Source of the DNA: Naegleria gruberi
Lineage: Eukaryota
DNA: 64,000 bases
Strand: one strand, 5' to 3'
Assembly (NCBI GenBank): GCA_000004985.1
Contig: GG738917.1
The notes under the pieces are model-generated. The model ran no database searches. It saw only the letters and a program-made list of their open reading frames with translations, and had not been told where the DNA came from. This document shows, one piece after another, positions 10,239 to 51,170 of this stretch. Made by a program: the position numbers and the translations under genes. Within the stretch, counting starts at the first letter, position 1. Every line of letters begins with the position of its first letter.

Positions 10239-12023
10239 ATGAGAGCAGTTGTGAGGTTATGCCCTCATCATACTTATCCGACCAATAATAATAATAATAT
10301 TAATAATTCATTGAAGACCGGAAGGGAAACATCAGAGGTTCCCTCACCAAACTATTATTATGAAGCAACGGATTTGGAACATTTTACAGTGTATGAAAAT
10401 AATGTTAGGGAAAATGGAAAAACCTTCGAATGTAAACATATTTATGATAGCAGTGCAACACAATTTGATATTTTTGCTAATGAAGTAGTTCCGTTGATTG
10501 AGAAATGCTTTCAGGCTCAGGATTGTGCTGTTCTTTATTTCGGAAGTGATTTTGCTGGAAAACGATTTTCACTAGAAGGATTACCTGAATATCCAGGATT
10601 TTTCTATAGAACTATTGAGCTTTTATTTGACACAATAGGTAGGATTAATAATCTATTTCTGTTAACTTATCATTTAACCAGCTGGTGAGGATCCTTCAAA
10701 CAAATGTAGACTATTTTACTCTTCCTTCACTATTGAGAAGGAAACGATATTCGACAACTTGCCTAGTGATTCCAGTTCTCAAATAAAATTGAGAGATGAT
10801 AAAAAGAAAGGAATAATAGCAGAGGGTGGAACCTTAATAGAACTGTACGATATTCAACAAGCTCTTCAAGTTTATTATGAATCAACGTAAGTGGATTTTA
10901 GTTTCAAGTTACCAAATTTCTTAGATCAAAATTTTATAAATCCCTCTCCATGGGTCAGAATAAGCATTTAGTTATAAATATCAGGATTGATATTAGCAAT
11001 GCTTGCAAATCTAATTTTACAAAAGGAGAATACGGCATTTTAAGCATGGTTTCAGTTGGGAGTCCTACAATTAAACCTCAATCTTCAGTGGAAAAGAACC
11101 AAGAAATGGAAGTAGCTAATTTTTGGGTTAACCACTTAGGTAGTTGCATGAATTCATTACACAATTCTGTGAATCCCTCAATTCCATTTCACAAATCAAA
11201 ATTTACTCTTCTTCTTAGAGATTTTCTAATGAGAAACAAGGACAGCACTTCATTGTTCAATCTTAGCCCTCTTCATGAAAGTTACAAGTTTGTTGTTCAA
11301 ACTTTAACAATATGCAACAGAATATGTAAGACAACGCCAGCTAGTGTTGAAACGAAAAAGACAATAACCAAGAGCTCTGCTAAAACAAGTTCAGCCACAG
11401 AAAGGAAAACCACTAATTCAGATCTAGAAAAGAAAACTCAAGAAGTTGACGCCTTAACAAGAGAAAACAGAGAACTTTCTGATAAGATGAAGGCAATAGA
11501 GGACCAATTAAGGAAGATCCAAGAAAAACAAGAAAAGCAAACGATTCAAATTAATGCTCTATCGCCAACAAAACCAAAAGACGATGATGGATTACGGGTT
11601 TCAAAAAAGATGGCCAGACCTTCTTCTTCCAAATCGATACTGAATACGAGTGCTAGCAGCGAACTAGACAGATACAGAGAGGTAATGGAAGGAACATTAA
11701 CAAAGTTAAAAAACCAAATTAAATCATTGGAGATTGAGAACTCTGAGGTAAAGAAAGAAATGACTAAACGTGAGAATACATACAAGAAGAAAATCTCAGA
11801 GCTTGTAAATGATGTCAAAAGAGATAGTTATCAAAAGCAAATTCAAGAATTACAAACTAGAGTTGAATCACTAACAAAAACTGTACACGAGCTGAAAGCA
11901 CAAAAGAAAAACTTAACAGAAGGAGAAAAAATATACAGAACTCAGTTTGAAAAATTATCAAAAGAAAACCAAGAACTAAAACAAAAACTAGGAATAGTCT
12001 CTCATTCAATTGCTTCTAGCTGA
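10239..12023 (+). CDS. Kinesin-like protein with a degenerate (probably catalytically inactive) N-terminal motor domain plus coiled-coil stalk; join(10239..10638,10682..10886,10925..12023)
   Basis: Motor-domain landmarks are aligned but mutated. The P-loop GQTGSGKT becomes GSDFAGKR. The 'YLEIYNE..DLL' motif becomes SFTIEKETIFDNL. Switch I NxxSSRSH becomes NACKSNF. Switch II DLAGSE becomes NHLGSC. Conserved HIPYRDSKLTRLLQDSLGG becomes HKSKFTLLLRDFLMRN. Two short introns (43 nt at 10639-10681, GTAGGA..CCAG; 38 nt at 10887-10924, GTAAGT..CTTAG) join three ORF-track fragments in frame. The C-terminal ~300 aa is heptad-rich. Confidence 0.7.
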
Positions 12024-15200: not shown

Positions 15201-16421
15201 TGTAAAAATTGGAGATATGGGACTTTCCATAAAGTTAGAAGAACTCAATAGAAATAACTCGGCTTGGGGAACCAGACGATGGATGGCACCTGTAAGTAAT
15301 TATCAATTAATATTTCTAAAATCTCAATATAGGAGCAACGGTTGGGTAAAAGATATGACTCTACTGTGGATATTTGGAGTTTAGGATGTATTGCATTAGA
15401 AATGGTTTTACAATATTCGTATTCGATGGTTGTAAAGTCAAGTAATTCAATGGACAATATGGATCATGATATGAGACATGTGGACTATTATCAAGAAATT
15501 AAGAATAATCCTAACTTTTTGAATGATATACTAAGACCACTGGAGTCATACTATGATGACAATATAATAGAATTCATTAAAAAGTGCCTTGTTATTGAAC
15601 CATGGAAACGAGCCAAGGCTCAACAATTATATGGCCTACTCAATCAAGATATTAGATCAGTGGAGAACGCTGAGGTTCACTATGACCAGAGCCTTGAAGA
15701 GTTTCATCCATCTCCCTTCTCTGTGGAAAAGAAAGGATTGGAACAACTCCATGCAGCAACACCCACCGCTGCCAATATCCCTAACAAATTAATTGAAAAT
15801 GCAAGTCTAAGTAACTTGGCGCTCTTACAAAACGAAAGGGATAAAGTGAATGCATTGATAGAGAAAGTAGAAGAATCACAAAGTATTCGTAAAATATCCA
15901 ATCCAGTATTTATAGAGCTTGGAGCTGATAACAAAAAATATACTAAACCAGAACCAAAAGCAACCCACAAACTAACATCCACCATGACAATCGAAAGTAG
16001 AAATGTTCTCACAAGCCATGGATTAAGCACATTTTTCAAAGAAATTGAAGTTGAAGAAAATCATGAAAAAGAAAGCCAATCACTGAAAGACCACAATGAA
16101 TCCTCATCAAGCAATAATGAAATGCTTCCAGAAGAATTTTCCACACAAGTTAAAAGAGGTCATGAAAAGTCACTCCACAAACTCTTGCAAAAATCAATAT
16201 CTGATTGGACAACAAACGATGTAGGAATTTGGCTCATTTCAATTGATTTTAGCAAATTTGTTGAGAATTTTCAATCTCAGAATATTACCGGAAGAGCTTT
16301 ATTGTTAATAAGAGAAGAAGATATGAAAGATGTGGGTGTAGTTAAATTGGGAGACAAACTTTTATTGTGGAACATGATTCAGAATTTAAGACAACTTCAC
16401 GATAGAAAGCAAAAGAAATAA
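12286..16421 (+). CDS. Large Ser/Thr protein kinase: N-terminal low-complexity region, pseudokinase-like domain, active kinase domain, C-terminal SAM domain; join(12286..15291,15333..16421)
   Basis: Active kinase motifs: GSGSQGTV, VAIK, HRDISTKN, DMG, then GTRRWMAP|EQRLGKRYDSTVDIWSLGC restored by a 41-nt intron 15292-15332 (GTAAGT..TATAG). The upstream domain has a degenerate C-lobe (HGNIDVNSIFF, DLGG, KTEVWLFGILM, CHYDPSCRPNMREL). The C-terminal DWTTNDVGIWL..LGDKLLLWNMIQNL is SAM-like. Confidence 0.75.
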
Positions 16422-21053: not shown

Positions 21054-21103
21054 NNNNNNNNNNNNNNNNNNNNNNNNNNNNNNNNNNNNNNNNNNNNNNN
21101 NNN
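21054..21103. other. Assembly gap (50 N)
   Basis: Run of N. Confidence 0.99.
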
Positions 21104-21208: not shown

Positions 21209-22360
21209 TTACTTCTTTTTGGCCTTCTTTTCTTTCTTTTTATAAATTGCTAACAGTTTCTCAAACTCCTTATCATACTTGATATCAAATCCATGAGCTG
21301 TATTCACAAAAGTTTGTTCAATCTTTTCCTGTTCTTCATCTGAAAATTTAATCTCAGAATCGCTAAAATCCAACTGTCCCACCAACTCCATTTTCACACT
21401 CTCAATCTTGTTTAAATTATGTGGACACAATTCAAAATAAAGTTTCCATTCGAATGTGTACAATTTTCTAATCATATCAGGCATGGAAGGTTTATACAGG
21501 GAACTAGTTGATGAAGAAAATTGTTTACTCTTTGAAGCCATTTGAGAAGTTGGAATGGAAGGTAAACTTGCAGAATGAGGAGTAAAATCAAAGAATTGAC
21601 CAGTCACTCTTTCCTTTCTTCTATGGCAAACAGTTACTTTTCCATTCGAAGGATCGATTATTATATCAATAAACCAAAATCCAGAATCTTTTATCATCAT
21701 ATTAATATATAAATTGAATTTTTGATTATATTTACCTTTGTACCTAAATAATTGTCCCAATTGTCTTTTAAGGGCAATTACACCAGGTGCTATTATAGAC
21801 TGATTGCAAAATTTTAAAATAGTTAGTACAGGTGATGCTTCTCCAAAATAATTAATTAGAAATGTTTCCAATGTTTGATAATTACTAAAATTGACATTAT
21901 TTTCTAATAATCGACAAGTAAATGATTGAATATTATTACCATTGACAAGACATGATTCAGAAAGATGCGGATCATTCATAGATTGTATCTAAATATAATT
22001 CATTTAATCAATTATATGAAATCAATATATTTACCTCACTGTACAATATTGAAAGTATTGAATGAATAACTTTGGTCAATTTGTTTTCACATTCAAAATC
22101 TTCTTCTTGAATATTAGAGTTGGGTATTGGATTCTTGGTATTTGGTTCTAAAACAGTTATCTTGTTACATAATCTTATCAAATCTTTAGCTACAGGTAGA
22201 TCAATGACTTTCCTATCATACAATGACACAAACAAATTATTTTAAAAACTTACTGTTGTGATATTCTTCTCACAGAATCGGCTGTTTCTACAAAATCCAA
22301 CAAATAAATTGGTGGTGATGTTGGTGAATTTTTAATGTCCTTTGCGTGTTTTGATCCCAT
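21209..22360 (-). CDS. Hypothetical protein (~354 aa) with N-terminal myristoylation-type motif (MGSKHAK); complement(join(21209..21988,22035..22212,22254..22360))
   Basis: Exon 1 ATG at 22360 (MGSKHAKDIKNSPTSPPIYLLDFVETADSVRRISQ). A 41-nt intron (GTAAGTTTTT..TATGATAG, 22213-22253). A 46-nt intron (GTAAATAT..ATATTTAG, 21989-22034). Both junctions keep frame and merge the ORF-track pieces 22008-22235 and 21209-21979. Lys-rich C-terminus. Confidence 0.55.
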
Positions 22361-23762
22361 TCTTATTTTTATTCGAAACTAATTTTACTAAACATAGAGT
22401 CAAAATACAACTTCCAATGATTGTTTTCTTCTTCCTGCCGATGATGATGATGCTGCTGGTGGAATATTCTTTGAAAAAAAAAAGAGTAATGAGTATCAAA
22501 GTTTGCCGTTTTTTTTTAGTTTTTGAAAATAATTGTTCTGAAAAGGCAGCATTTCTTCTTGAAAGGTCGAATGGCATACAAATTTAGAGAAAAACGTACG
22601 AAACAACTTTTTGTAAATGTGCACTGCAGTGATGATTCGATTCGATGGCTCAATATTTATCTCATTCAAACAAATCATATTAGACTATTAGATATCATCA
22701 TATAGAAGTCAACTGAAAATGAAAAAATGTAGTAACAAATACAATCATACGAAGAAAATGAAAACGTTTGTGTATTATGATAAACAGATGGATCATGTGG
22801 ATGATGAAAGTTCAGTATATCCACACAATCTAGCCATACAGTTAGAAGGCCTTCCCTTTGATTTTCAATGAAAAAACGCGGGTTTTCCTTAAATTAAAAT
22901 TGGAACAGCTTCAATTAAGGAAACCGTAGTGAACAGATGAAATTCATGTAGACACTGTGAAGGAAAATGATCCATGAAAATAAGAACTTGCTCCTTTATA
23001 TTAAGTTACTGCACGAATCAGAGGAAATGAAAAATTATTCTTTATTTCGAAAGGACATGATTCTTTTTTCACAAATCGGTGACAATTCGTTATTAGAACA
23101 AGTCCCTTTTGGGTTTCCCTAATATTCCTTCTTTTTACTTACTGGGTATCACCAATTAATTGAATTTAAATCATTTAATTCTTATCAGCTCGAGTTAGTA
23201 TTGGATTGCTGACAATTCAAGTCTCAGACATGTCTCATTGAATGAAGCAACGTTATTTTTCTAACGTCTTCTAAGCAATCGTACCAGAAAGCCTTGATCA
23301 TCAAAATTTGGTATCGAGAGCTCTTCAGACACAACACACGACAAGATTTAACATCGAGTTATGTTGTTGTGCTGTTTGCTTTCGACATCAACAATGTGTC
23401 TTCTCGTGTTGCTGTTGCTTGGTTCTTCATCAAATTACCAACTCCTTTTTCTCTTCTATTTTTAACGAGAAAAAAGGAACGCAACAAGTTGGCACCACAC
23501 AAAGTTGAAAAAAAACCACAACGATTTTTCTCTGAGAAGATTTTACTTTGCTTCCAATACCGACAGCACAAAGACGACAATTATTGGGAGCACATTACAC
23601 AAATAACAACAACACCACTTACATTCTGAACAATAGTGTTTTTTTGTCAAAAGCAACTATTTTATACTATTTAGCAAGAGAAATAGGTGTTCCATATAAC
23701 CTTTATATTTTGGAGTAACATACATATATTCATAATTAATAGATAAAACACATCAAGGAATC

Positions 23763-26306
23763 ATGTACACCACAATGATACCACAATCACAAACCACATC
23801 GTCATCACCATATAATGGGCATTCTCCTTCCTATTATTCTGATCAAAATAGTGGAAATTCGTCTAGTACATCAATTTCCTCCCCTTCCATGTACTCTTAT
23901 TCATCTTCATCTAATACCTCTCCAACTTCGATAACACACTACCCAATGCAGCAAACAATGCAAAATAATGGAATGGTTTCTAATATTATGGATTTTTATA
24001 TTCATGATGTAAACTTCTCCTTGCATACTAAAGCATCACCTGAATGCGAAATTCAATTGTACAGATTAACCAACCCAATGGATGCTCAAATTACTTTTGT
24101 CAACACTCACCCACAGTCAACACCTCCTCCACATCTCTCAACTGTTGTATATGCTTTACAAATCCAATTAGAAAAGTTCATGTCTCAAACAAATCAATGG
24201 GTACCTTGTACTAACGATACTCCTTCTTCAAACTTGTTTAAAGACTATGAAGCTAATGTTCTGTATAACCAAACTAATAATCAATCAATTACACAATTAA
24301 TTCAAACAGATGGAAAGTCACTTTATATACAGTTACCACTTCAATTAGGACTTTTCAGTAACCAATATACTTCTATGACTTTCCGTTCCAAGTTAAATAC
24401 AAGCAAGGAAAAACAAGGTTTTAAAAGAGGTGAAGTGGCAATCTTTAGAGTTGTTTTCACTCTTCTTAAACAACAACAACAATTGCATACCTATTTCCAA
24501 AATAAGTATGATTCTGTGCCGTTTGGAATAATTAACCATGGTAAAAACAGTACAGCTGTGGGAATGTATAAAAACATTAAACTGAGCTCTATCCCTGGTA
24601 CTGTTGAGTATAACATGCTCATCAAGCAACAACAACAACAAACTTACACACCTCAAATGCACAGTCCAAACAGCAGTATTTATACTACTCCGAACACAAG
24701 TGTTGGAACCAGTGATTATTCAAACAATTCTCCATATGGAGGAAATCAATATAGTGGATATAATGGCCAATCTATGGGTCTGGATGTAATTGATGAAAGT
24801 AGACAAATACAGGAAATGTTGGACATTCTGAATCAAGAAGAAGAAATGGCAAGACAATATTACAACTCCAATTCTTCAAATGATAGTGGATCTGGAGATG
24901 ATATGATGTACATGACTGACGACGAGGACATGTTCAGAGAAATTAACTCTATGGAAGATTACTTCTCTCAAAGTCAAGAAACAAACACAAGTCCTGGACA
25001 ATCCGATCAAAATTATGAAGATATCAAATGGGAAGATGACCCTAATGAAGATTTCCATGGCTTTACAACTCAATCAGATTCAGCCAATGTATTCTTATGT
25101 GATGATGAATGTGATGGAATGGACTCTTACTATGCTGACTATTCTGCTCCATCAACGCAACCCCAAAGCGCAACTTTGTCTTCTGCTTATAGCACCCTTT
25201 TCAAAAGCTCAGTTGTTCCACAACCATTGGCTAGTAGTGCTGGTAGAAGTGTTGAAAGAAGAAGTCTTTCTAAACAAATGGATTCATTTGCACCTCCTCC
25301 TCCAGTTATGAGAAGTAAGGAATCTTCATTGTATTCATTGCCTCCACCATCATCAGAATCAAGAAGTAGATCCTCCCTTGGTAATACTATTCAAGCATCA
25401 ATTACTCCATCTATTAATCAATACGAAACATGGAGCAGTCCTATTGTTTCAGATTCTCGCCAAGAACTCGTTCGTTCTGTTGCTTCTCAACCTTCTCAAC
25501 CTCCAAGAATGACCTTTGGAGCTCACTATATAAGATCTGATGTTGCAGCAGAGCTCAAACAACCTGTAGAAGAAAAGAAAAAGAAGAAGCTTTCACTTGG
25601 AAAACTTTTCAAGAAGAAGGATGAAAAAGCTCCAAAAGAAAAAGAAAATGAAGAAAAGGCCAAAAACCCACTGTCCAATCAATCTCATGCATCATTCTTT
25701 GCAAACTTTAAACCAAGCACTATGGTTACACTTAATACAAATCAGTTACCTGAAAATGTGAGACAAGTCTCTAAAGTTACTCAAGCACAACAAAAACCAA
25801 CAGAAGATTCTACAAGTACAGCCGAAGACGAACTTGCTGAAACACTTTCCAAATTGAATATCAATAACACTGCCCTCACCACTAAATTTGATCCAAAGAA
25901 GATTACTTTCACTCTTGAAAAGAAAGGAAGCAAGGAAGTTTATGACTTGACCAACCCTTCCAAAGAGAAGAAGTCCATTCCATCATTCAATCCAGGAGAT
26001 GTTATTCAATTTTCAGTTAAGAATAATAATGAGAAAGAATTTATCGAAAAGACAAACCTGATTGTGGGTACAACTATTCCAAGAAGGTCGATTGTCACAT
26101 TCTCTGACAAGTCAACTGGCTTTACTCAAATGAAAGAAACTGTTGCCACAAGTCAAATAGTACAAATTCCAAATATAAGAGTAACTAATCCAACATGCAA
26201 GAAGAAGGCAAAGATTGTCACAATTGTATTATTTGTTAAATTTATCGAGTCCGGAAAAGAAAGAATTTTCACAACCAAGAGAAGAATAATGGTTGTTAAT
26301 AAATAA
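23763..26306 (+). CDS. Hypothetical Ser/Thr/Asn/Gln-rich protein (847 aa)
   Basis: Single ATG ORF with coding-like composition and no recognisable catalytic motif. Antisense ORFs within it are low-complexity artefacts. Confidence 0.55.
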   Translation: MYTTMIPQSQTTSSSPYNGHSPSYYSDQNSGNSSSTSISSPSMYSYSSSSNTSPTSITHYPMQQTMQNNGMVSNIMDFYIHDVNFSLHTKASPECEIQLYRLTNPMDAQITFVNTHPQSTPPPHLSTVVYALQIQLEKFMSQTNQWVPCTNDTPSSNLFKDYEANVLYNQTNNQSITQLIQTDGKSLYIQLPLQLGLFSNQYTSMTFRSKLNTSKEKQGFKRGEVAIFRVVFTLLKQQQQLHTYFQNKYDSVPFGIINHGKNSTAVGMYKNIKLSSIPGTVEYNMLIKQQQQQTYTPQMHSPNSSIYTTPNTSVGTSDYSNNSPYGGNQYSGYNGQSMGLDVIDESRQIQEMLDILNQEEEMARQYYNSNSSNDSGSGDDMMYMTDDEDMFREINSMEDYFSQSQETNTSPGQSDQNYEDIKWEDDPNEDFHGFTTQSDSANVFLCDDECDGMDSYYADYSAPSTQPQSATLSSAYSTLFKSSVVPQPLASSAGRSVERRSLSKQMDSFAPPPPVMRSKESSLYSLPPPSSESRSRSSLGNTIQASITPSINQYETWSSPIVSDSRQELVRSVASQPSQPPRMTFGAHYIRSDVAAELKQPVEEKKKKKLSLGKLFKKKDEKAPKEKENEEKAKNPLSNQSHASFFANFKPSTMVTLNTNQLPENVRQVSKVTQAQQKPTEDSTSTAEDELAETLSKLNINNTALTTKFDPKKITFTLEKKGSKEVYDLTNPSKEKKSIPSFNPGDVIQFSVKNNNEKEFIEKTNLIVGTTIPRRSIVTFSDKSTGFTQMKETVATSQIVQIPNIRVTNPTCKKKAKIVTIVLFVKFIESGKERIFTTKRRIMVVNK

Positions 26307-26422
26307 TTTTCACCTTATTGATTTAACCATGCGTTATGTAAAACGCAATCAAACGAAATTCTACTTTGCCATGTTTAAGCTATTATTATTATACTAAGGA
26401 TATATTCTAGGATTTAATGAGA

Positions 26423-26494
26423 TCCCGTGTAGTCCAATGGCTAGGATACCTGGCTTTCACCCAGGAGGTCCGGGTTCAATTCCCGGCATGGGAG
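26423..26494 (+). tRNA. tRNA-Glu (anticodon UUC)
   Basis: Cloverleaf: acceptor TCCCGTG/CATGGGA; anticodon stem CCTGG/CCAGG with loop CTTTCAC; T-arm GGTTCAATTCC; discriminator G. Confidence 0.9.
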
Positions 26495-26578
26495 GATGAT
26501 TTTACTTTGGAACATTATTATCATAAATGTTTATTTCTCTCGTTATTAAAGGTAATTAGAGAAAATTTGTCATTTATT

Positions 26579-27550
26579 TTACAAGGATGGTTTGATGATT
26601 GGCTTTGATGGCTTCTTGCATGTCTTTCTCTTGATACAAATCTTCTTCTTAATTGACTTGCAACACTTCTTCTTTCCACCAACTAATTTGAATTTCTTAC
26701 AAATCTTCTTTCCCTTTGAACGTTTCAAACACTTCTTATAATACTTCTTCTTGATACATCTTGGAGGAATGACAATTGACTTGGCACAATACTTCTTCTT
26801 ATTATATTTAACACATTTAGAAAGAGTCTTCTTGTGCTTACAGAACTTGATGGTCTTATGTTTGGCACAGAAGTATTTCTTCTTAATGAGACAACATTTC
26901 TTGACTGATTTTCTCTCCTTACAGTATTTAACCTTCTTATACTTGGCACATTTCTTTGCCCATGAAACAATCTTACACTTTTTAACATATCTACATTTGG
27001 CAACCTTCTTATTGTAGGAATCAACAGTGTACTTGTCACAAATCTTCTTCTTTTCACACTTCTTGATTGGAACCTTCTTGAATTTCTTACAGACCTTCTT
27101 ATATCCATTCTTGAAACACTTGTTGATAATCTTATATTTGGCACAGAATTTCTTGAAACCCTTCTTAACACAAATCTTCTTAGTTCCATAAGAATCACAA
27201 ACTTTCCAGTACTTCTTCTTGGCACAACCAACAATCTTATATGCATGCAAGACACACTTCTTTGTTGGCTTGCTATACTTGTCACATTTGGAATATTTCT
27301 TATGTTTGAGACATTTACCAGCCCCTACAATTGCATATTGATCACAGACCTTCTTTTGACCAACAAGTTTGTGTTTCAAACACTTCTTAATCCACTTGTG
27401 CTTTAAGCATTTTCTCTTACAATGCTTTGGCTTGTGATACTTGTCAACAACAACAACTGGAGGTTTAGTTTGATAGCTGTCACTTGCTTGAACTGAGAGG
27501 ACTGCAAGTAAAAGTAGAAGTGCAATTGAAAAGATTAGATTTGCTTTCAT
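26579..27550 (-). CDS. Secreted hyper-basic Lys/Cys-rich repeat protein (~324 aa precursor from MKANLIFSIALLLLLAVLSVQA)
   Basis: ATG at 27550 followed by a canonical hydrophobic signal peptide. The mature part has about 30 Cys at a regular 8-12 residue spacing, embedded in Lys runs (recurring KKC / KYxKKC units). Roughly one residue in three is Lys. The ORF-track version (347 aa) starts at an upstream in-frame codon. The antisense ORF 26725-27285 is an artefact of the repeat. Confidence 0.7.
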   Translation of the reverse strand: MKANLIFSIALLLLLAVLSVQASDSYQTKPPVVVVDKYHKPKHCKRKCLKHKWIKKCLKHKLVGQKKVCDQYAIVGAGKCLKHKKYSKCDKYSKPTKKCVLHAYKIVGCAKKKYWKVCDSYGTKKICVKKGFKKFCAKYKIINKCFKNGYKKVCKKFKKVPIKKCEKKKICDKYTVDSYNKKVAKCRYVKKCKIVSWAKKCAKYKKVKYCKERKSVKKCCLIKKKYFCAKHKTIKFCKHKKTLSKCVKYNKKKYCAKSIVIPPRCIKKKYYKKCLKRSKGKKICKKFKLVGGKKKCCKSIKKKICIKRKTCKKPSKPIIKPSL

Positions 27551-27867
27551 TTTTTGTTGGATAGGATAGTTCAACCATGGTGCTAATTTAAACCATTTCG
27601 AATAATTTTTCATTTGGAACAAGCTTTAAAAAGTTGGTTGTAAGGTTCCAAATTTGGAAAGAAAATTGATTTCCCTAACCAAACCTTCAATGATTCAACT
27701 ATCAACTCATCATTCCAAAAGTATTCTTATTATCAACAGATATGTTGAATGATTTACAACCTGAACAATTTCAAGCACCTGTGAAAGACATTGCTAATGT
27801 ACAAGATGGTTTTATTACAATATGACATATAAATATGTTAATGGTGTGTCTACAATAATCAAATTGG

Positions 27868-29426
27868 TTAAACAATACTGTTCTTTAATTGAATGTCTCT
27901 AGAGAAGGAATACTTTTTGAATTCAGAAGTTTCTTTCAATCGTTCAAAAGTATCATTAAGATTTAACATTAACTCAGTTGTTACAATATTTCTAATGAGG
28001 GACAATTTGACTGGTTGTTGATTTTCATAGATAGATACAAGTTCCTTCTTTGCTGGCGATGGAAGATTGACTTCATATTTTGAAAGAGATTGAAAGTAAG
28101 TTTCAAATAAATGTTTGAAAGTTTCCACTGTCACTAATACATCATCCTTCTCTTTCAGATTTTCTAATTCTTCATATAAGAGTGCATTTTCTAGTGAAAA
28201 TTCCTTAGCGCAATACATTTTAAACAATTCCTTAAAAGTGTCATCTTTCATTAATTCTTCCAATCTAGATTCTTGTTTAATATTATCTGAAACTGCGTTT
28301 CTCCTCTTTAAAATAAATCTTCTCCATTCCAATACAATTGCTGTTCCTCCCCCAAGACCGTATGTACATAAGCATGCGAGAGATGACAACACAGAGGTCA
28401 CAACTTCCTCATAATCATACGTGAATTGAGAACAAATTGCAATCACAATGGTAATTAACATGATACACAAGAAATAAATCAAATCAATTCTCAACCCAAA
28501 TGGATCTTCAAAGGAAAGAAAATTCAACAGACCCTTATCCTTAATCTTTTTCCAGTTTAAGGCAATATCAATTAGAATTATCAAGGAACCAATATTGTTC
28601 CTAATAAAATTTGAACAGCATACATTATATTCAATTCGGCTTGTAAGGAGTATTGTTTTTGATCAACTATATAAGGAATGCAAATAATCATCCAAATACA
28701 GGCATAGGTAAATCCACTCACAAATGAACCAATGATACCAAACCAACTGGATACCAGAAACTTGTGAATCTTGATAGTAGTTTCGCTCTTTGCCTTTGAA
28801 AGAAATAGATAAAGATATCTGAGGTAGGAAAATCTTATTAGGGAAAATCCATAAATTCCAACAATGGCAGATAAAAAGCAAATACTCAATACATAATTGA
28901 CAGATCGACATGAAAGGGTATATGATGTAAAGCTAATATTAAATACAATTATCAAAATAGGTAATGCATAAGGAGCTGTCAATCTTCTTTTCACAGATTT
29001 GGTTTTACAAACTGTCAACAAGGCCAAATAGAATAGAAAACCAATAATGACAGTAGCCCAAATAACAGACTCATACACAATCTCTGCGTTTCTATCAACT
29101 TCATTAGAACAAACATTGTACTCGTCACTGAATTTTTCATAACAATACATTTCATTAATGGTCATGAATGAAGTTGACTGATTGTAATAATACTGAGATT
29201 GTAATTCATAATCTAAAACGTATTTTTCACTAGAAAATGGATAAAAGAGTGCATTGTGTTTTCTAACTAGTGGAATGTCATTGAATTGATTCAGATAATA
29301 GGTAAGAAACTCCTTTTGATATCCTGAAATGTTACCGAAACCATTTTGATAAAACATGTAACCAATATTTCTCTTGATTTCAAAATATTTCATTGTTGTA
29401 TTGGTACCAATGAAATACTCATTCAT
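27868..29426 (-). CDS. Seven-transmembrane protein with C-terminal RGS domain (7TM-RGS). Two ORF-track frames (28581-29426 and 27868-28584) need joining.
   Basis: Hydrophobic helices: ATVIIGFLFYLALLTVC, ALPILIIVFNISFTSYTL, VLSICFLSAIVGIYGFSLI, VSSWFGIIGSFVSGFTYACIWMIICI, IDLIYFLCIMLITIVIAICSQF, VLSSLACLCTYGLGGGTAIVL. The RGS domain is FKELFKMYCAKEFSLENALLYEELENLK... A -1 frame change occurs near 28600-28640 (unresolved: tiny intron, frameshift or error). Confidence 0.65.
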
Positions 29427-29465
29427 TCTCTTGTAGAGCGAATCAAGATGATTTTCAATTATTGT

Positions 29466-30146
29466 TTAATTTAAATTAGTTTCATTATAATAAACTGAAA
29501 CTGAAATAGGTACTTGAAATTCAGAAAGAAAAGAAAAGTCACTCCACTCATACAATCCATTCCATTCCCTTTTCCTTGGAAGACTTTGTACGAAACTACG
29601 TAGAAAATCTTCACTGCTCATCACAAACACATCATACAAGTCAATTGGATTTCCAAAAATACAATCAATATATAAATAATTAAAAGTCTGTACACTTTCA
29701 GGAATAATCTTTGATTGGTTACCATTCTTATTGTACATTTCTAATTGACTTTTGAAAACTGTTTCTGTCAAGACCAAATCACTAACAAGTATTTCACTTT
29801 CGTCTTGATTATACACATTTTCAGCAGGAGAGTATGGATGAATAATCACAATTCGTTTACCATGCAAATCTAGTGGTGAGGATAATGACATCTTTGGTGA
29901 GAAGGAAAAGACTGTCAAGTAATTTAATGATGAAATAATGGACGGATGGAGAGATTGTTTAATCATGGATTGTTTGATTTGAAGGAGAGAATGTTCTTGA
30001 AGTTGTGGGTGTTGTTGTGAGAAAGATCTATCTGTGTTAATGAGTGCTAGGAATGAAAGGATCAATAGGAAATGAACAAGAGTTCGTGTCATTTTTTTTT
30101 GACTATTCAGGTGGAATTTACCCGTGATTGTTGATATTTGTTTCAA
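29466..30146 (-). CDS. Signal-peptide-bearing ectodomain ORF, possibly the 5' part of the 7TM-RGS gene downstream
   Basis: Internal Met starts a signal peptide (MTRTLVHFLLILSFLALINT). The ORF ends at a TAA (29466-29468) that lies in the same frame as the next ORF's ATG (29424-29426), 39 nt away. A GTTTAT..CTACAAG 66-nt candidate intron would remove the stop in phase. The downstream ORF has an N-glycosylation-rich ~120-aa pre-TM region that would need a signal peptide. Confidence 0.4.
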   Translation of the reverse strand: MKQISTITGKFHLNSQKKMTRTLVHFLLILSFLALINTDRSFSQQHPQLQEHSLLQIKQSMIKQSLHPSIISSLNYLTVFSFSPKMSLSSPLDLHGKRIVIIHPYSPAENVYNQDESEILVSDLVLTETVFKSQLEMYNKNGNQSKIIPESVQTFNYLYIDCIFGNPIDLYDVFVMSSEDFLRSFVQSLPRKREWNGLYEWSDFSFLSEFQVPISVSVYYNETNLN

Positions 30147-30339
30147 TTAGTAGAGCTGCTGTTTGCCATCGTCTAATTAGAAATTTGAACTACTACCTTA
30201 ACAACTGTTGTTACATAAATTCTATTATATAATACATATTCTATTACTATAAATCAACATTAAAACATGAGAAAGGTTGCCAACACAAAGGTGCAATGGT
30301 TTAGTTACGAATTAAGGATACAATACTAGTGAATGAGAA

Positions 30340-30409
30340 GCGTCGATGGTTTAGTGGTAGAATACGGCGTTGCCATCGCCGTGACCCGGGTCAATTCCCG
30401 GTCGACGCA
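30340..30409 (+). tRNA. tRNA-Gly (anticodon GCC)
   Basis: Acceptor GCGTCGA/TCGACGC; anticodon stem CGGCG/CGCCG with loop TTGCCAT; T-arm CCGGGTCAATTCCCGG; discriminator A. Confidence 0.85.
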
Positions 30410-30972
30410 TTCAAAGATAACAATTTTTACTTTCTACATACAATATTATAATATTGTATATAATATTGGACCAAAGCCTTAATATCATTTGTATCATTCA
30501 TAAGCATTAGTTATTGCAATTCTTGATAAATATTCAATCCCTTTTTCTCCAATATTAATAAATTAGATCAAAGATTGGAAATTTCCTTTTATCCTTTCTT
30601 CTGACACATTTCTATTCAACGTTAAACATTCAGTTGTCGCAAATTTTGACAAATAGATCGACTTCCTACATCTTGAACCTATGCTGAAATCAAGTTTAGT
30701 TTCGTTAAAGTTGAAGTTTTTATTTGAAATTAAATTAGCTCCTTCACTTCCCAATTTTACATGTTTCATTTCATTTTGGAACTATATCTTAATAAATCAA
30801 AATTGAGATCAATCTTAAAAGGTTAATCTTTTCAGTTTCGAACACTTTGAAAGGTGTTTAACAGTTTCATCTCCTACCACTCCATTAATTCCCTCTATCA
30901 ATGCTAAACCTGAAAGTAATTCATTTTTTCTTTTCTTCATGGAACTTTGATTGTTGTTGAAAACGTTGTAAG

Positions 30973-31053
30973 GCGGTCTTGACCGAGTGGTTAAGGTGAT
31001 TGACTAGAAATCAATTGGGGAGACCCGCACAGGTTCGAGTCCTGTAGATCGCG
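30973..31053 (+). tRNA. tRNA-Ser (anticodon AGA), class II with long variable arm
   Basis: Acceptor GCGGTCT/AGATCGC (one G-U); D-arm CCGAGTGGTTAAGG; anticodon stem ATTGA/TCAAT with loop CTAGAAA; variable arm GGGGAGACCCGC; T-arm CAGGTTCGAGTCCTG; discriminator G. Confidence 0.85.
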
Positions 31054-31127
31054 ATTGTTTTTATTAAGGTATCACATGTTAAAGTGTGATATTATTTTGA
31101 TTAATAAACATATTGTTATTGGGAAGA

Positions 31128-31200
31128 TCCCCCTTAGCTCAGTCGGTAGAGCGTCAGACTGTTAATCTGCAGGTCGGTGGTTCGAGCCCACCAGGGGGAG
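31128..31200 (+). tRNA. tRNA-Asn (anticodon GUU)
   Basis: Acceptor TCCCCCT/AGGGGGA; D-arm GCTCAGTCGGTAGAGC; anticodon loop CTGTTAA; T-arm GGTGGTTCGAGCCCACC; discriminator G. Confidence 0.85.
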
Positions 31201-32559
31201 ATTAAGTTTTGCTTTGACCTTTTGGTAAATTGAGAGGGTGTTTTACACTATGTTATTGTTAACTAATAATTCTGCCTAATAGAGGTTGTTTGCTAACTGT
31301 TTATTTCAATTGCAATATCTCTTCTTGCTGGCTTGAATTTGTTCAACATATTTAGGACTCCAGAAAAGGCAAACATTATTGAAATGAACGACTTCGATGA
31401 AAAGTGGAGTCTAAATTGTTTCCTAAAAACATGATTGGCTTTGAGTTGTTTAGGTTGACTAGTAATAAAATCATCATTTGGAACTTGTTGCGCATTTGCT
31501 TAATACCCAAGTGTAGGAGACTTGACATAAACCTCTAGAATCCTCAACCCATCTATACTTTCCTTTCTGTATTTAATTTTGTTTTTTCATCATTGTTGTT
31601 TTAATATGTTTACCAAATTCTTCTTGTTCCATAGCTTTCAGATTTTTTCGATTTATGATTCCCAGAGTGTTTTAACAAATCCTCTCTTTTCTGATTGAAT
31701 AATGAATAGTTACCATGAATTTATTCAACCGAAACCTCCAGTCTCGATATCAGCATTAAAGTTGAAAATTTTAATGGTAGCAATGCTCCAAGCAAAAGCT
31801 TTCCGATCAATAAATCCATTTAGTAACAAGTAAAACCACTGGAAGATTCCTCCCAATTCATCTACCTACGCCTTCTCAAATTCTGAACCTTGTTCTTTAG
31901 AATTACTCCTCCAAAATATGAACCAACTACCAAGATCCATCATAAACTGATTCAAATATAATGAACATATCACATCATGTAGACTTTAAACGACATGCCA
32001 TAGATACATCACCACAACAAAAACATGTTCTCCTCCAATAATTCCTTATCGTTCCAACAAGTGTGTTTAAATTCAAGAGCATTGAATTTAAAAAGTAATA
32101 ACTATGGTCCACTCAGAATGTCTCTTGATGAGTATCCAATTTTCTTACATAGAGAAGGCAGAAACAATAACAATTAATTCCTCTATCACATCCGTAATAA
32201 ACTTCATCATACAAACATGAAAGAGGATGTTCCAAGATAATCATACAGGGTACTACAGAAAGAATGATGAAGATTTGTTTACCAAGTCACAGAAAGGAGG
32301 AAACAAGAAGAAGGAATACAAATGGAGGTTAAGAATACTTCCCTAAACTGTTCATAACAGTAATTATTATTATACTATTCAACATGTTGTTTTAAATTAG
32401 TTAGCGATCAACCTATCGATGCTGGTAATGGCTAAAGAATACGATGAAGCATTTTTAATTTTTACTGTTCAAAAATTAGATTGTAAACAACGAGCACATA
32501 ATGGTAAACCAAGTTTTAAAAATTTTGTTGAAAAAAAAATCCATTAATCCATATTCACA

Positions 32560-33102
32560 ATGCCAAAGGAAACCGTTGACAGAAAACTCAAGAAGGACAA
32601 TCCAATGAGAAAGGTCCAAATCCAAAAGCTTTGCTTGAATATTTCCCCTGGTGAAGGTGGTGATAGATTGCAAAAGGCTGCTAGAGTCTTGCAAGATTTG
32701 ACTGGTCAAGCTCCAGTTTTCCACAAGGCCCGTTTGACTATCCGTTCTTTCGGTATTAGAAGAAACGAAAAGATTGCCTGTTCCGTCACTGTTAGAGGTG
32801 AAAAGGCCTACGAATTGTTGGAAAGAGCTTTGAGAGTTAAGGATTTCGAATTGAGACAACGTAACTTCTCTGATGCTGGTAACTTCGGTTTTGGTATCCA
32901 AGAACACATCGATCTTGGCTTGAAGTACGATCCTAACATTGGTATCTTCGGTATGGACATCTTCGTCGTTTTGGGTCGTCCAGGTTTGAGAGTCTCCAAG
33001 AAGAAGAGAGCTCCAGGTAAAATTGGTGTTCAACACTTGTTGAGCGAAAAGGATGCCAAGCAATGGTTCGTTGATAACTTCAAGGGTACCATCTTGAACT
33101 AA
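32560..33102 (+). CDS. RPL11: 60S ribosomal protein L11 (uL5)
   Basis: 180-aa ORF: [69 protein letters not shown]. Codon usage is markedly GC3/optimal-codon biased relative to neighbours, as for highly expressed ribosomal protein genes. The antisense 229-aa ORF is an artefact. Confidence 0.95.
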
Positions 33103-33262
33103 ATTAAAAAATAAATCAAAACATAAAATTTCATAAATTGCATTTAAAAAACAATAATACAACAATATTCATCAACGAAGATCACCAACAAATACTCAAC
33201 TAATTTTTGTTAACTCTGATTAAAGAAGGTTGTCATCAAAATGTCTTCTTCAAGATTAAAAA

Positions 33263-33736
33263 ATGTCAAACAACAACTCCTTTGATGTCATTCGTTTTCG
33301 CTCCTTGCTCAAAAAATATGCTAAACCACAAAGTGAAGAAATTGAAACAAGTCAAGTTGTTGATTTATTAAAAGAATTTGATAAGAAAAGATTTGGAACA
33401 TTAACAATCAAAGATGTACAATCACAAATTGATATTGATAAATATGGATCTGTTTGTTTTTCATCAGTGGAAAACTTTGCTTGTCATCACACTTTAAACG
33501 ATCGTTCAACATTTGTGACAGATACCATTTCATTATTCTACAATAATTATTCCTCGGATAAAGGTAAAAGATTAGATAACAAATCCGATAGATTAATTGA
33601 AGAAAATGATATGATCAAATTAATAATTCAAATGTCAGACAATTCTCTTTCCACTGAAGATGCTTCTCGAATGATAAAGGAATTACAATCAAATCAATTG
33701 TACAGTGTAAAGAAATTAGCTGAAAAGCTTTTATAA
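33263..33736 (+). CDS. Hypothetical protein (157 aa), weak EF-hand-like loop (DKKRFGTLTIKD)
   Basis: ATG ORF with coding-like composition. The motif is degenerate, so the call is weak. Confidence 0.35.
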   Translation: MSNNNSFDVIRFRSLLKKYAKPQSEEIETSQVVDLLKEFDKKRFGTLTIKDVQSQIDIDKYGSVCFSSVENFACHHTLNDRSTFVTDTISLFYNNYSSDKGKRLDNKSDRLIEENDMIKLIIQMSDNSLSTEDASRMIKELQSNQLYSVKKLAEKLL

Positions 33737-34117
33737 TTTATTGATGATAAATTTCATTCAATTGATTACATTATTTAATAATAATAATAATATTCAATCT
33801 ATTATTTGATTATAAATATTGAGGAGAATGACAGCCACTTCCATTCATTCACTCACTCTCCAACATGAACCCATTAGGAGGAACAGTCCACACAACCATG
33901 TCTCAATTTGTATTTGGATCGAATTTTAAATGTAACGGTCATATTTTTAAACAAACATCCTCAGTTCGAAAAATTACACGAAGTCAAGTCCGCACAAGCA
34001 TCAAAGAAATGGCAATTTTCAATCGAACAACAAATTCAAAAAAAAGAGTACAACATATTGTTGCAATTTTCAAAATTTCAATCAATTGAAAACAGCTACA
34101 TTTAAATTCACTCCATT

Positions 34118-34939
34118 ATGAATAACCTTCTCAAAAGTATCCGAAGTCAAATCCATCAACATTTTACCTCCTCCAATAATAATAATAATACAGCTACTAC
34201 TTCATTACTTGGTAGTTATATGTTGAGTAGGAAAAGCTGCACAACCAAACAATGGAATGTTTTTGTGATTGCCTGTGATGGAAATATCGGAGTTGGTAAA
34301 AGTACACTCTGCAAGGTGATGCAACAATATATTCATAAAGAGTTTAGTAGTAGTATACTGTTGTGTCATATTGAAGAGGATGTTGAGAAGAATATTGAAC
34401 TCTTTAAAAAGTACTTGTCCAATCAGAGAGAATATGGTCTTGAATTTCAGAAATGGATTATTAAAGATAAGATTCAACAATTCTTAGATAAGGTTTCAAT
34501 ATGGGAAGATGAAAATGTTGAGCAGGATAAGATTGTTGTCATTATGGATAGATCATTGTTGGCAGATCGTTTTGTCTTTTTCAGAAATTTATTAGAAAAG
34601 AAACTAATGAGTCAAGAACAATTACAAGATTATGAACAAACATTTGAGAAAATGTCTAGAGAATATCCAGTTAACTTGTTTTATCCAGATTTTCACATCA
34701 TTTTAGAAGCTTCAATTGATGTTGCTATGGAAAGAATTAATAGAAGAAATAGAGTTGGTGAAAGTTCAGTTTACAATAAGAATTACTTACAAATGATTGA
34801 AGATTTCCATCTTGACATGTATAAAACCTTACCAGTGAGAGAAGGAGCAATTGTATATAGACATGATAACAGTATTAATCAAAGTATTACAAATATTGAA
34901 CAATTTCTTACAGAATCACCACACAATAGATTTGTGTAA
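34118..34939 (+). CDS. Deoxynucleoside kinase family protein (dCK/dGK/dNK-like) with N-terminal extension
   Basis: P-loop IACDGNIGVGKSTL; the family 'ERS..DRY' segment present as MDRSLLADRFVF (compare dCK ERSIYSDRYIF); Arg-rich lid region INRRNRVGE. Confidence 0.75.
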   Translation: MNNLLKSIRSQIHQHFTSSNNNNNTATTSLLGSYMLSRKSCTTKQWNVFVIACDGNIGVGKSTLCKVMQQYIHKEFSSSILLCHIEEDVEKNIELFKKYLSNQREYGLEFQKWIIKDKIQQFLDKVSIWEDENVEQDKIVVIMDRSLLADRFVFFRNLLEKKLMSQEQLQDYEQTFEKMSREYPVNLFYPDFHIILEASIDVAMERINRRNRVGESSVYNKNYLQMIEDFHLDMYKTLPVREGAIVYRHDNSINQSITNIEQFLTESPHNRFV

Positions 34940-50708: not shown

Positions 50709-50744
50709 AATAACAGCAGAAGGTAAAGCAAAATAGGAAAGTAA

Positions 50745-51170
50745 TTAAATTCCACAACTGAAATATTTTCTTCCAATAGCAAAACGAAGACATAATGTTA
50801 TAATACACCATGAACTTGCAAATAAAGTCATTATCATATAAATTGGATGTCTTGCTTTGATATGTTTACTGTTTCTCTTCCAAAAAAGTCCAATTCCACA
50901 TAAAACTAAAACAATTAAATAAAGAGTTAGACATAAAATAGATATTGATGATGATAACCATGTTTCTGGACATATTCCATATTCAATTATTCCTTTATCT
51001 TTACTAAAATCTCCTAATTGACTTAAAATTGAATAACACAATGTTACGTTAGTAGTGGTAGTTGTATTACTGTAAGTATTATTGTATGCATTTTCATTAG
51101 TTAACGATATTGAATAGATGCGAAATGTATCAAATAGAATAGAAGATGATTCCAGAGCTTTTGTTGCCAT
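50745..51170 (-). CDS. N-terminal 2-TM segment (N-glycosylation-rich N-terminus, then 2 helices), probably the 5' part of the RGS gene downstream. Same frame, separated only by a TAA.
   Basis: The stop TAA at 50745-50747 and the next ATG at 50706-50708 are 36 nt apart in the same frame. 2+5 helices would give a 7TM topology. No frame-preserving GT..AG intron could be found that removes the TAA. Confidence 0.4.
   Translation of the reverse strand: MATKALESSSILFDTFRIYSISLTNENAYNNTYSNTTTTTNVTLCYSILSQLGDFSKDKGIIEYGICPETWLSSSISILCLTLYLIVLVLCGIGLFWKRNSKHIKARHPIYMIMTLFASSWCIITLCLRFAIGRKYFSCGI

What the first reader, a model, noticed from the sequence alone, without database searches (positions are those of the whole stretch)
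27868..30146. Receptor-like 7TM-RGS gene A: signal peptide/ectodomain ORF, in-frame TAA, 7 TM helices, internal frame break, RGS domain
A seven-helix membrane domain is fused to a cytoplasmic RGS domain. A GPCR-like sensor built into its own GTPase-accelerating domain is known from plant AtRGS1 and a few protists. Upstream in the SAME frame, separated by a single TAA, lies an ORF with a signal peptide and a Cys-containing ectodomain. A 66-nt GTTTAT..CTACAAG candidate intron would splice out the stop in phase. Within the gene there is additionally a -1 frame change near 28600-28640. A 23-nt GTATGC..TTATTAG segment would repair it, but that is below normal intron size. Either this is a degenerating locus, there are sequence errors in a draft assembly, or the splicing is unusual.
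Basis: partly seen in the sequence, partly recalled or inferred. Interest (0 to 1): 0.6.

Follow-up and report, generated by a model that had tools for sequence, protein, structure and literature searches.

The report
Broken Naegleria 7TM-RGS receptor gene
This is a single-exon gene of the amoeba Naegleria gruberi for a membrane receptor with a built-in G-protein brake (7TM-RGS), a known and very large family there; this copy is knocked out by one stop codon and one missing base, and neither break is an intron.

Summary
On the minus strand, 30092-27868, three ORFs encode a signal peptide and ectodomain, seven TM helices and an RGS domain (Pfam E=3e-8). They are interrupted by an in-frame TAA (29468-29466) and a frame break.

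The splicing interpretation is refuted. The window is Naegleria gruberi DNA. An orthologous metagenome contig (L003, 97% identical in the coding part) reads through both sites. It has GAA where the window has TAA. It has one extra A between window 28591 and 28590, which gives ...NIMYAVQILLGTILGSLIILIDI... The 23-nt "intron" encodes conserved TM5 residues present in all 17 aligned homologues. The 66-nt "intron" is coding and would need an AAG acceptor.

The official model XP_002670320.1 uses the 23-nt intron, which I read as an annotation artefact. L003 has its own TAG and a 5-nt deletion. dN/dS between the two copies is about 0.2, and all 14 family-conserved residues are kept.

Best reading: a recently inactivated copy (null allele or young pseudogene) of a Naegleria/Willaertia family whose ectodomain may be PBP-like. 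Naegleria 7TM-RGS proteins are already published, so this is ordinary. A second 7TM-RGS gene in the window (51170-49275) also carries a nonsense TAA.

The parts
27868..30092 (-). Whole gene A. It was ancestrally one uninterrupted exon of about 741 codons: signal peptide, ectodomain, 7TM, RGS. Stop codon TAA at 27870-27868.
   Evidence: Repaired with the two L003 states it reads as 741 aa, collinear with 650-750-aa paralogues.
30048..30092 (-). Start ATG (30092) and hydrophobic signal-peptide-like N-terminus, MTRTLVHFLLILSFL.
   Evidence: Kyte-Doolittle peak of 1.68 at residues 1-19. It aligns with the N-terminal helix of P0123. No dedicated signal-peptide predictor was available.
29103..29930 (-). 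Extracellular domain (about residues 55-330), with N-glycosylation sequons and a Cys-containing stalk (CYEKFSDEYNVCS). It may have a periplasmic-binding-protein type II-like fold.
   Evidence: ORF1 residues 112-206 match the ectodomains of P0123, P0125, P0127 and P0192 at E=1e-7 to 4e-4. In the Foldseek search of the P0123 model, ArtJ, polar-amino-acid SBPs and Thi5 match at prob 0.98-0.99, E about 0.015, TM about 0.3. A sequence profile gave no PDB hit.
29466..29468 (-). Lesion 1: in-frame TAA nonsense codon. The orthologue has GAA (Glu).
   Evidence: Codon alignment with L003. P0216 reads ...YYNETNLNETIIENHLD....
29430..29495 (-). It is coding ectodomain sequence.
   Evidence: 62 of 66 nt are identical to L003, where the segment is open and translated in frame. 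Every in-frame GT..AG option across the TAA ends in AAG or GAG and has a weak donor.
28558..29102 (-). TM1-TM5: TM1 29102-29010, TM2 28976-28911, TM3 28907-28818, TM4 28784-28665, TM5 28652-28558.
   Evidence: Mapped from the helices of the P0123 AlphaFold model through the family alignment. Hydropathy.
28601..28623 (-). It is coding sequence for the TM5 residues (M)YAVQILL(G).
   Evidence: 23 of 23 nt are identical in L003, where it is translated in frame. All 17 aligned homologues have residues here, with no gap. TM5 hydropathy is 2.53 with the frameshift repaired and below 1.5 if the segment is spliced out. P0271 contains ...ELNIM|NNIGS....
28590..28591 (-). Lesion 2: 1-nt deletion. L003 has an extra A: atattAggttcc gives I-L-G-S. 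It shifts the frame and leads to the TGA at 28583-28581.
   Evidence: It is the only gap on the window side within the coding alignment. The restored Gly is shared by 14 of the 17 aligned homologues.
28279..28494 (-). TM6 (28494-28426) and TM7 plus its cytosolic extension (28416-28279).
   Evidence: The family motifs FxDPxxxRxDL and GG...E are retained.
27883..28263 (-). RGS domain, intact. It retains KEFSLEN, EVNLPS and NLNDTFERL.
   Evidence: Pfam E=3.1e-8. PDB RGS17/RGS10 at E=4e-5. In the paralogue model this domain superposes on RGS9 and RGS1 at TM 0.72-0.76. All nine near-invariant RGS residues of the family are kept.

Best explanation
Gene A is a copy of a Naegleria gruberi single-exon gene. 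It belongs to a Naegleria/Willaertia subfamily of 7TM-RGS receptors. The family architecture is a signal peptide, an ectodomain of about 280 aa (possibly PBP type II-like, ligand-binding), a seven-helix GPCR-fold domain nearest to class C GPCRs, and a cytosolic RGS domain. In intact members the RGS domain would accelerate GTP hydrolysis on G-alpha subunits, and the ectodomain/7TM part presumably modulates that brake in response to an external cue. That mechanism is inferred from AtRGS1 and from GAP assays on N. fowleri 7TM RGS domains. In this window the copy cannot make the full-length receptor. A G-to-T change turned a Glu codon into TAA after residue 208. A 1-nt deletion in TM5 shifts the frame. 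Neither break is an intron. The inactivation is recent, because the rest of the sequence still looks like a selected gene. It is a null allele or a young pseudogene in a fast-turnover gene family.
For: Organism: the SMC3 ORF in the window is 99% identical to N. gruberi SMC3. The locus is annotated as NAEGRDRAFT_74779 on the same 223,047-bp scaffold.

Orthologous contig L003 has the same downstream gene and is 97% identical in the coding part. It reads GAA at the TAA position and has one extra base at the frame break. Those are the only differences that affect the window's frame.

The 23-nt segment encodes TM5 residues present without a gap in all 17 aligned homologues. The restored Gly is shared by 14 of the 17 homologues. 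TM5 hydropathy is 2.53 when repaired and below 1.5 when spliced.

ORF1 is homologous to the ectodomains of full-length paralogues.

Introns recognised in the window are 38-46 nt with GTAAGT or GTATGT donors and YAG acceptors.

No in-frame GT..AG pair across the TAA has a YAG acceptor.

Recent inactivation: there are 27 synonymous and 21 nonsynonymous differences from L003. That gives omega of about 0.2, with binomial p=4e-8 against neutrality. Coding identity is 96-99%, against 59-81% with seven indels in the adjacent intergenic DNA. All 14 (near-)invariant family residues are retained.

Relaxed constraint at the locus: L003 carries its own TAG and a 5-nt deletion.

Assembly quality: the other long ORFs in the window are uninterrupted, up to 3323 aa. 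Single-stop interruptions of long ORFs occur only in the two 7TM-RGS genes.

Against: No read-level or transcript data were available, so errors in the 2010 draft assembly cannot be excluded. The window has five N-runs.

omega of about 0.2 and full retention of the conserved residues are also what an intact, functional gene would show.

Two independent pairs of lesions in two close lineages is an unusual coincidence if both inactivations are very recent. L003 is a metagenome assembly and may itself contain errors; its TAG lies in a cluster of 4 mismatches within 6 nt.

Whether another haplotype of the sequenced clone has an intact allele is unknown.
Confidence: 0.8

Rival explanations
1. The gene is intact in the organism. 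The TAA and the missing base are errors of the draft Sanger assembly, or of the haplotype consensus.
For: The assembly is a draft with gaps. Apart from the two lesions the sequence looks fully functional: omega is about 0.2 and all conserved residues are kept. The orthologue has the intact state at both sites.
Against: Neither lesion lies in a homopolymer run longer than 2. All other long ORFs in the 64 kb are clean. All three single-site lesions in the window fall in the two 7TM-RGS genes, which are roughly 11% of my rough estimate of the window's coding sequence, so about p=0.001 if errors were random. The orthologous contig is independently broken at two other places, which suggests the locus really is decaying.
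Confidence: 0.12
2. Unusual splicing, as proposed by the first reader and, for the 23-nt segment, as used in the official model XP_002670320.1. A 66-nt intron removes the TAA and a 23-nt intron restores the frame.
For: Both segments begin with GT and end with AG, and removing them gives an open 711-aa frame. The JGI/NCBI model contains the 23-nt splice.
Against: In L003 the 23-nt segment is 100% identical, yet there it must be translated, because removing it would break the frame. It encodes residues conserved in all homologues, and splicing would cut 8 residues from TM5. 23 nt is below the 38-46-nt introns seen here and below the 30-bp minimum used for N. fowleri (PMC8296547). The 66-nt segment has a GTTTAT donor and an AAG acceptor, and it is open coding sequence in L003.
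Confidence: 0.03
3. The upstream part is dead, but the last ORF is still used. Translation from the Met at 28461 would give a 197-aa protein with part of TM6, TM7 and the RGS domain: a small membrane-anchored GAP.
For: All four lesions in the two lineages lie upstream of this Met. Both lineages keep the 197-aa ORF open (P0121). The RGS part has 4 synonymous and 0 nonsynonymous differences. The syn/nonsyn contrast between the upstream and downstream parts gives Fisher p=0.014.
Against: RGS domains are more conserved than ectodomains even in intact genes, so the contrast is expected anyway. The chance that four random lesions all fall upstream is about 0.26. There is no promoter or transcript evidence for an internal start.
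Confidence: 0.08
4. Translational recoding: TAA readthrough together with a ribosomal frameshift yields the full-length receptor.
For: Two 7TM-RGS genes in the window each carry an in-frame TAA.
Against: The window uses the standard code, with a 3323-aa ORF free of any stop. No suppressor tRNA is among the five tRNAs found. The TAA corresponds to Glu in gene A's orthologue but to a conserved Tyr in gene B's paralogues, so no single reassignment fits. There is no slippery heptamer at 28590.
Confidence: 0.01

Closest known systems
Naegleria fowleri 7TM RGS proteins (28 genes; Nf 7TM RGS1-4 studied; Bosch et al., J Biol Chem 2022, PMC9283941)
   Same: Same genus. Same architecture, with a seven-helix domain and a C-terminal RGS. 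The RGS domains are shown there to be GAPs for Nf G-alpha subunits, including self-activating ones. N. fowleri proteins (P0272, P0273) fall in the same 90% cluster as hit P0124 of this subfamily.
   Different: The ectodomains described there are EGF-like, lectin and GPS-containing. This subfamily's ectodomain matches none of those in Pfam and looks PBP type II-like in a predicted model. This particular copy is disrupted.
Arabidopsis AtRGS1 (plant 7TM-RGS)
   Same: 7TM domain fused to a cytosolic RGS domain. The presumed logic is a receptor that holds a G-alpha protein off through GAP activity (PMC9283941, PMC8584482).
   Different: AtRGS1 has no large ectodomain (my own knowledge). Sequence similarity was detected only in the RGS domain, and common descent of the fusion was not tested. 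N. gruberi has 229 RGS proteins, whereas plants have one (PMC3971589).
Class C GPCRs (GABA-B, mGlu, TAS1R, GPR158)
   Different: Class C GPCRs use a PBP type I Venus-flytrap domain and act as GEFs. Here the ectodomain is at best PBP type II-like and the output is a fused RGS (GAP). Sequence identity is 5-14%.
N. gruberi NAEGRDRAFT_74779 / XP_002670320.1 (the existing annotation of this locus)
   Same: It is the same DNA. The 500-aa model covers 29393-27868.
   Different: The model starts at an internal Met, omits the signal peptide and half of the ectodomain, and bridges the frameshift with a 23-nt intron that the comparative data contradict.

Membership tests
7TM-RGS receptor (Naegleria / AtRGS1-type architecture) | C-terminal RGS domain above the curated threshold | tested here: met
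   PF00615 scores 34.4 bits against a cut-off of 23.9, E=3.1e-8. PDB RGS17/RGS10 match at E=4e-5.
7TM-RGS receptor (Naegleria / AtRGS1-type architecture) | Seven transmembrane helices with a GPCR fold, N-terminal to the RGS | tested here: met
7TM-RGS receptor (Naegleria / AtRGS1-type architecture) | RGS residues that contact G-alpha (RGS4 E87/N88, N128 and D163/R167 equivalents) are conserved | tested here: met
   KEFSLEN, EVNL and NDTFERL are present. All 9 near-invariant RGS columns of the family are retained. The residue equivalence to RGS4 rests on my own knowledge.
7TM-RGS receptor (Naegleria / AtRGS1-type architecture) | GAP activity on a G-alpha subunit | not testable with these tools
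   It has been shown only for N. fowleri 7TM RGS2-4 domains (PMC9283941).
7TM-RGS receptor (Naegleria / AtRGS1-type architecture) | An open reading frame able to produce the full-length protein | tested here: not met
   TAA at 29468-29466 and a 1-nt deletion at 28591/28590. By descent the locus belongs to the family, but as assembled it is not a functional member.
Spliceosomal intron (the 23-nt and 66-nt segments) | GT...AG boundaries with an acceptor and a length typical of the organism | tested here: not met
   The 23-nt segment is shorter than the 38-46-nt introns in the window. The 66-nt segment has a GTTTAT donor and an AAG acceptor.
Spliceosomal intron (the 23-nt and 66-nt segments) | The segment is absent from the coding sequence, so homologues lack the residues it would encode | tested here: not met
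   Both segments are translated in frame in the orthologue. The 23-nt segment encodes TM5 residues present in all 17 homologues.
Spliceosomal intron (the 23-nt and 66-nt segments) | Spliced junction observed in RNA | not testable with these tools
   No transcript data were accessible.
Pseudogene / null allele | Disabling lesions relative to an intact ancestral frame | tested here: met
   One nonsense codon and one frameshift, each polarised by the orthologue and the family alignment.
Pseudogene / null allele | Neutral evolution (dN/dS near 1, indels as in flanking DNA) | tested here: not met
   omega is about 0.2, and there are only two indels in 1.9 kb against seven in 470 nt of flank. The inactivation must therefore be recent, or the lesions are errors.
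Periplasmic-binding-protein type II-like ectodomain | Significant structural or sequence match to SBP_bac_3 or NMT1-type proteins | tested here: inconclusive
   Foldseek gives prob 0.98-0.99 but E about 0.015 and TM about 0.3 to ArtJ, polar amino-acid SBPs and Thi5. One of 70 members hits Pfam NMT1 at 1.4e-4. A profile of 18 ectodomains finds nothing in PDB sequences.

The most novel reading that the evidence does not exclude
The subfamily to which gene A belongs may be an undescribed receptor class in heterolobosean amoebae. In that class a bacterial-type (PBP type II, amino-acid-binding-like) sensor domain sits on a class-C-like 7TM domain whose output is a fused RGS GAP. This would be a small-molecule sensor built as the functional mirror image of metabotropic glutamate and GABA-B receptors. 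The named members found here come from N. gruberi, N. fowleri, N. lovaniensis and Willaertia magna, and 375 representatives matched at E<=1e-3. Gene A would be a recently lost member, which illustrates rapid birth and death in the family.
Probability: 0.3. Interest if true: 0.45.

Novelty: new member of a known kind. Interest (0 to 1): 0.2.

Why it matters
Mostly as a correction. The public model of this locus (XP_002670320.1) contains a 23-nt intron that appears to be a gene-prediction device for stepping over a frameshift. It also misses the signal peptide and half of the ectodomain. Counts of Naegleria RGS and 7TM-RGS genes (229 RGS proteins in N. gruberi) probably include such broken copies; two of the two 7TM-RGS genes in this window carry nonsense codons. 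The structural hint of a PBP-like ectodomain on a class-C-like 7TM-RGS scaffold could guide ligand searches for the intact paralogues, including those of the pathogen N. fowleri. It is only a prediction.

Tried and rejected
1. Ciliate-type genetic code (TAA = Gln) with Paramecium-like tiny introns. I rejected this because the window has a 3323-aa ORF with no stop of any kind and is N. gruberi DNA.

2. The first homology search, with the spliced 711-aa protein, returned nothing. That was a false negative of the word-indexed search. The exhaustive search with ORF3 found 375 relatives, including the annotated model of this locus.

I folded the intact paralogue P0123 instead. The single-sequence run was useless, with pLDDT 36.7.

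4. Synteny with N. lovaniensis and Willaertia around SMC3. Gene A is absent there, and the 22.2-34.2 kb segment of the window is rearranged, so no orthologue was obtained that way.

5. Exact look-ups of the window's ORF products and of P0271 or P0002 in the contig index found nothing. I could therefore not check the lesions against independent N. gruberi data.

6. Two exact-pattern scans of JGI metagenome contigs for further alleles found nothing.

7. A sequence-profile search of the ectodomain against PDB sequences gave no significant hit.

8. The bacterial promoter/terminator scan is irrelevant for a eukaryote.

9. The afdb50 fold library was unavailable.

Full report
**What is there.** On the minus strand, three ORFs lie head to tail: 30146-29466, 29426-28581 and 28584-27868.
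- The first in-frame ATG is at 30092. It opens with a hydrophobic signal-peptide-like segment.
- ORF1 and ORF2 share a frame and are separated by a single TAA at 29468-29466.
- ORF2 and ORF3 overlap in different frames.
- The last ORF contains an RGS domain. Pfam PF00615 scores 34.4 bits against a cut-off of 23.9, E=3.1e-8. PDB RGS17/RGS10 match at E=4e-5, with the EFSLEN and EVNL motifs aligned.
Removing them gives an open 711-aa frame.

**Whose DNA.**
- The window is 32% G+C and gene-dense. It uses the standard genetic code, with one ORF of 3323 codons free of any stop.
- Its SMC3 ORF is 99% identical to the N. gruberi SMC3 entry, 77% to N. lovaniensis and 66% to Willaertia magna.
- The locus is annotated in N. 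gruberi as NAEGRDRAFT_74779 / XP_002670320.1, on the same 223,047-bp scaffold as SMC3.
- It is a draft assembly with five N-runs.

**Introns in this genome.** A kinase gene in the window is interrupted inside its catalytic domain by a 41-nt GTAAGT...ATATAG intron. Other junctions between long ORFs are bridged by 38-46-nt segments with GTAAGT, GTATGT or GTAAAT donors and YAG acceptors. For N. fowleri, a 30-bp minimum intron length was adopted after inspection of gene models (PMC8296547).

**The decisive comparison.** An exhaustive HMMER search with ORF3 found 375 relatives. Two of them, P0216 and P0121, come from one 2677-nt metagenome contig, L003 (ENA ERZ929261).
- L003 is 96-99% identical to gene A across successive coding blocks (about 97% overall). 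It continues into the same downstream gene, so it is the orthologous locus of a close relative.
- The nucleotide alignment has only two indels in 1.9 kb of coding sequence.
- Where the window has TAA, L003 has GAA.
- At the frame break, L003 has one extra A (atattAggttcc). It reads ...LNIMYAVQILLGTILGSLIILIDIALNWKK....
- The 23-nt segment is 23/23 identical in L003. It must be translated there, because removing it would destroy the frame.

**Family alignment and hydropathy.**
- In an alignment with 17 homologues, the residues encoded by the 23-nt segment (YAVQILL) are matched without a gap in every sequence.
- The Gly restored by the extra base is shared by 14 of the 17 homologues.
- TM5 has a Kyte-Doolittle peak of 2.53 in the repaired reading. 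It stays below the 1.5 threshold if the 23 nt are spliced out.
- No in-frame GT..AG pair spanning the TAA has a YAG acceptor or a good donor.

Both proposed introns are therefore coding sequence. The gene was a single exon of about 741 codons.

**The existing annotation.** The official 500-aa model (P0271) starts at an internal Met (MKYFEIK, about 29393) and contains ...ELNIM|NNIGSLII... So it uses exactly the 23-nt splice. I read this as an artefact of gene prediction stepping over a frameshift. That step is an inference. My first word-indexed search with the spliced protein returned nothing, which was a false negative.

**Is it a pseudogene?**

*Evidence for decay:*
- There are two disabling lesions here.
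- The orthologous contig has two different ones. One is a TAG where the window has GAT, at about 29609-29607. The other is a 5-nt deletion corresponding to window 28487-28483.
- In the whole window, only gene A and a second 7TM-RGS gene have long ORFs split by one stop. Genes of 3323, 1230, 1032, 847, 809 and 746 codons are clean. This argues against random assembly errors.

*Evidence that the decay is recent:*
- The copies differ by 27 synonymous and 21 nonsynonymous changes. That gives omega of about 0.2, with p=4e-8 against neutrality. The RGS part has 4 synonymous and 0 nonsynonymous changes.
- The intergenic DNA just past the stop is only 59-81% identical, with seven indels.
- All 14 invariant or near-invariant residues of the family are retained.

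A rough calculation shows no contradiction. If about 5-15% of the divergence time were neutral, one would expect roughly 2-4 disabling events, which is about what is seen. The best reading is a recently inactivated copy, either a null allele in the sequenced clone or a young pseudogene. Assembly error remains a minority alternative (about 0.12).

**What the intact protein is.**
- Every member for which a source gives an organism is a 'predicted' or 'hypothetical' protein from N. gruberi, N. fowleri, N. lovaniensis or Willaertia magna.
- Full-length members are 650-750 aa. ORF1 residues 112-206 match their N-terminal ectodomains.
- With a 70-sequence alignment, paralogue P0123 folds with pLDDT 82.3 and pTM 0.81.
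- Its C-terminal domain superposes on RGS9 and RGS1 at TM 0.72-0.76.
- Its ectodomain gives weak but consistent Foldseek matches to type II periplasmic binding proteins (ArtJ, polar amino-acid SBPs, Thi5), at prob 0.98-0.99, E about 0.015 and TM about 0.3.
- One of 70 members hits Pfam NMT1. A sequence profile of the ectodomain finds nothing in PDB sequences. The PBP-like assignment is therefore tentative.

**How it most likely works.**
- *Shown here:* the domain order, the GPCR fold, and an RGS domain that keeps its G-alpha-contact motifs.
- *Inferred:* in intact members the RGS domain acts as a GAP on G-alpha subunits, and the ectodomain/7TM part modulates that in response to an external ligand. 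This follows AtRGS1 and the N. fowleri 7TM RGS proteins, whose RGS domains are GAPs for self-activating and conventional G-alpha subunits (PMC9283941).
- *For gene A as assembled:* translation from 30092 stops after 208 residues. A full-length receptor cannot be made.
- *An unproven side possibility:* a 197-aa TM6/7-RGS remnant starting at the Met at 28461 may still be used. All four lesions lie upstream of that Met and the ORF is open in both lineages. The statistics are weak.

**Comparison with what is known.** 7TM-RGS proteins are established in plants, Trichomonas, Naegleria and several other lineages. N. gruberi has 229 RGS proteins and N. fowleri has 28 7TM RGS genes (PMC3971589, PMC9283941). 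Gene A is one more, and a broken, member of that known kind. The ectodomains described for N. fowleri are EGF-like, lectin and GPS types. A PBP-like one is not mentioned in the passages of that paper I retrieved and would be a modest addition.

**Verdict.** The 7TM-RGS reading is right. The splicing hypotheses are refuted, and 'degenerating locus' is supported. The finding is ordinary, and its main value is in correcting an annotation.

Noticed in passing
window 49275-51170 (minus strand): There is a second 7TM-RGS gene ('gene B'), from a different subfamily with a short Cys-containing N-terminus and Asn-rich loops. It has an in-frame TAA at 50747-50745 inside TM3, where four paralogues have a conserved Tyr. 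No plausible intron spans it. No hit of 90% identity or more exists, so it appears to be unannotated. It is probably another nonsense-bearing copy.
   Followed up: partly
window 28601-28623; NCBI XP_002670320.1 / NAEGRDRAFT_74779: The public gene model for this locus contains a 23-nt intron and starts at an internal Met. Comparative data show the 'intron' is coding TM5 sequence, so the model is a frameshift work-around.
   Followed up: yes
L003 (ENA ERZ929261 contig k127_168404), positions about 168-170 and about 1290: The orthologous metagenome contig carries its own TAG nonsense codon, within a cluster of 4 mismatches in 6 nt. It also has a 5-nt deletion in a short tandem repeat (ttgat). Both are at sites different from the window's lesions.
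   Followed up: yes
window 26579-27622 (minus strand): A 347-aa ORF encodes a signal peptide followed by an extremely Lys/Cys-rich repetitive protein (CxKHK, CxKYK motifs). I did not scan it against Pfam. Its start is 97% conserved in L003, immediately downstream of gene A.
   Followed up: no
window 26423-26494, 30340-30409, 30973-31053, 31128-31200: Four tRNA genes (Glu-TTC, Gly-GCC, Ser-AGA, Asn-GTT) flank gene A. tRNA-Gly lies only about 250 nt upstream of its start codon.
   Followed up: no
window about 22240-34210 compared with L001 (N. lovaniensis): There is a synteny break. N. lovaniensis has SMC3, GlfB_C, RNB, HVA22 and dNK, followed by the giant Kelch/TPR/GRAM gene. In N. gruberi the RNB gene is absent and HVA22 sits at 53268-53831. 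A 12-kb segment takes their place, holding an 847-aa ORF, the K/C-rich gene, gene A and the tRNAs.
   Followed up: partly
window 1635-1684, 21054-21103, 48510-48559, 58730-59826, 62101-62383: Five runs of N mark assembly gaps. The gap at 48510 lies inside a MARCH6-like gene. The 1.1-kb gap explains the apparent 11.7% G+C dip and the spurious 458-aa ORF at 58461-59837.
   Followed up: yes
window 10887-10924, 15292-15332, 46454-46494, 21989-22034: The likely genuine introns in this window are very short (38-46 nt), with GTAAGT, GTATGT or GTAAAT donors and YAG acceptors. The published mean for N. gruberi is 203 bp, so the window's introns are far below that mean (PMC8296547).
   Followed up: partly
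tool behaviour, one search compared: The word-indexed protein search returned no hit for the 711-aa spliced query. Yet a 500-aa protein identical to its C-terminal 500 residues, and a representative about 96% identical over 279 aa (P0216), are both in that collection. Null results from that tool should not be taken as absence.
   Followed up: partly
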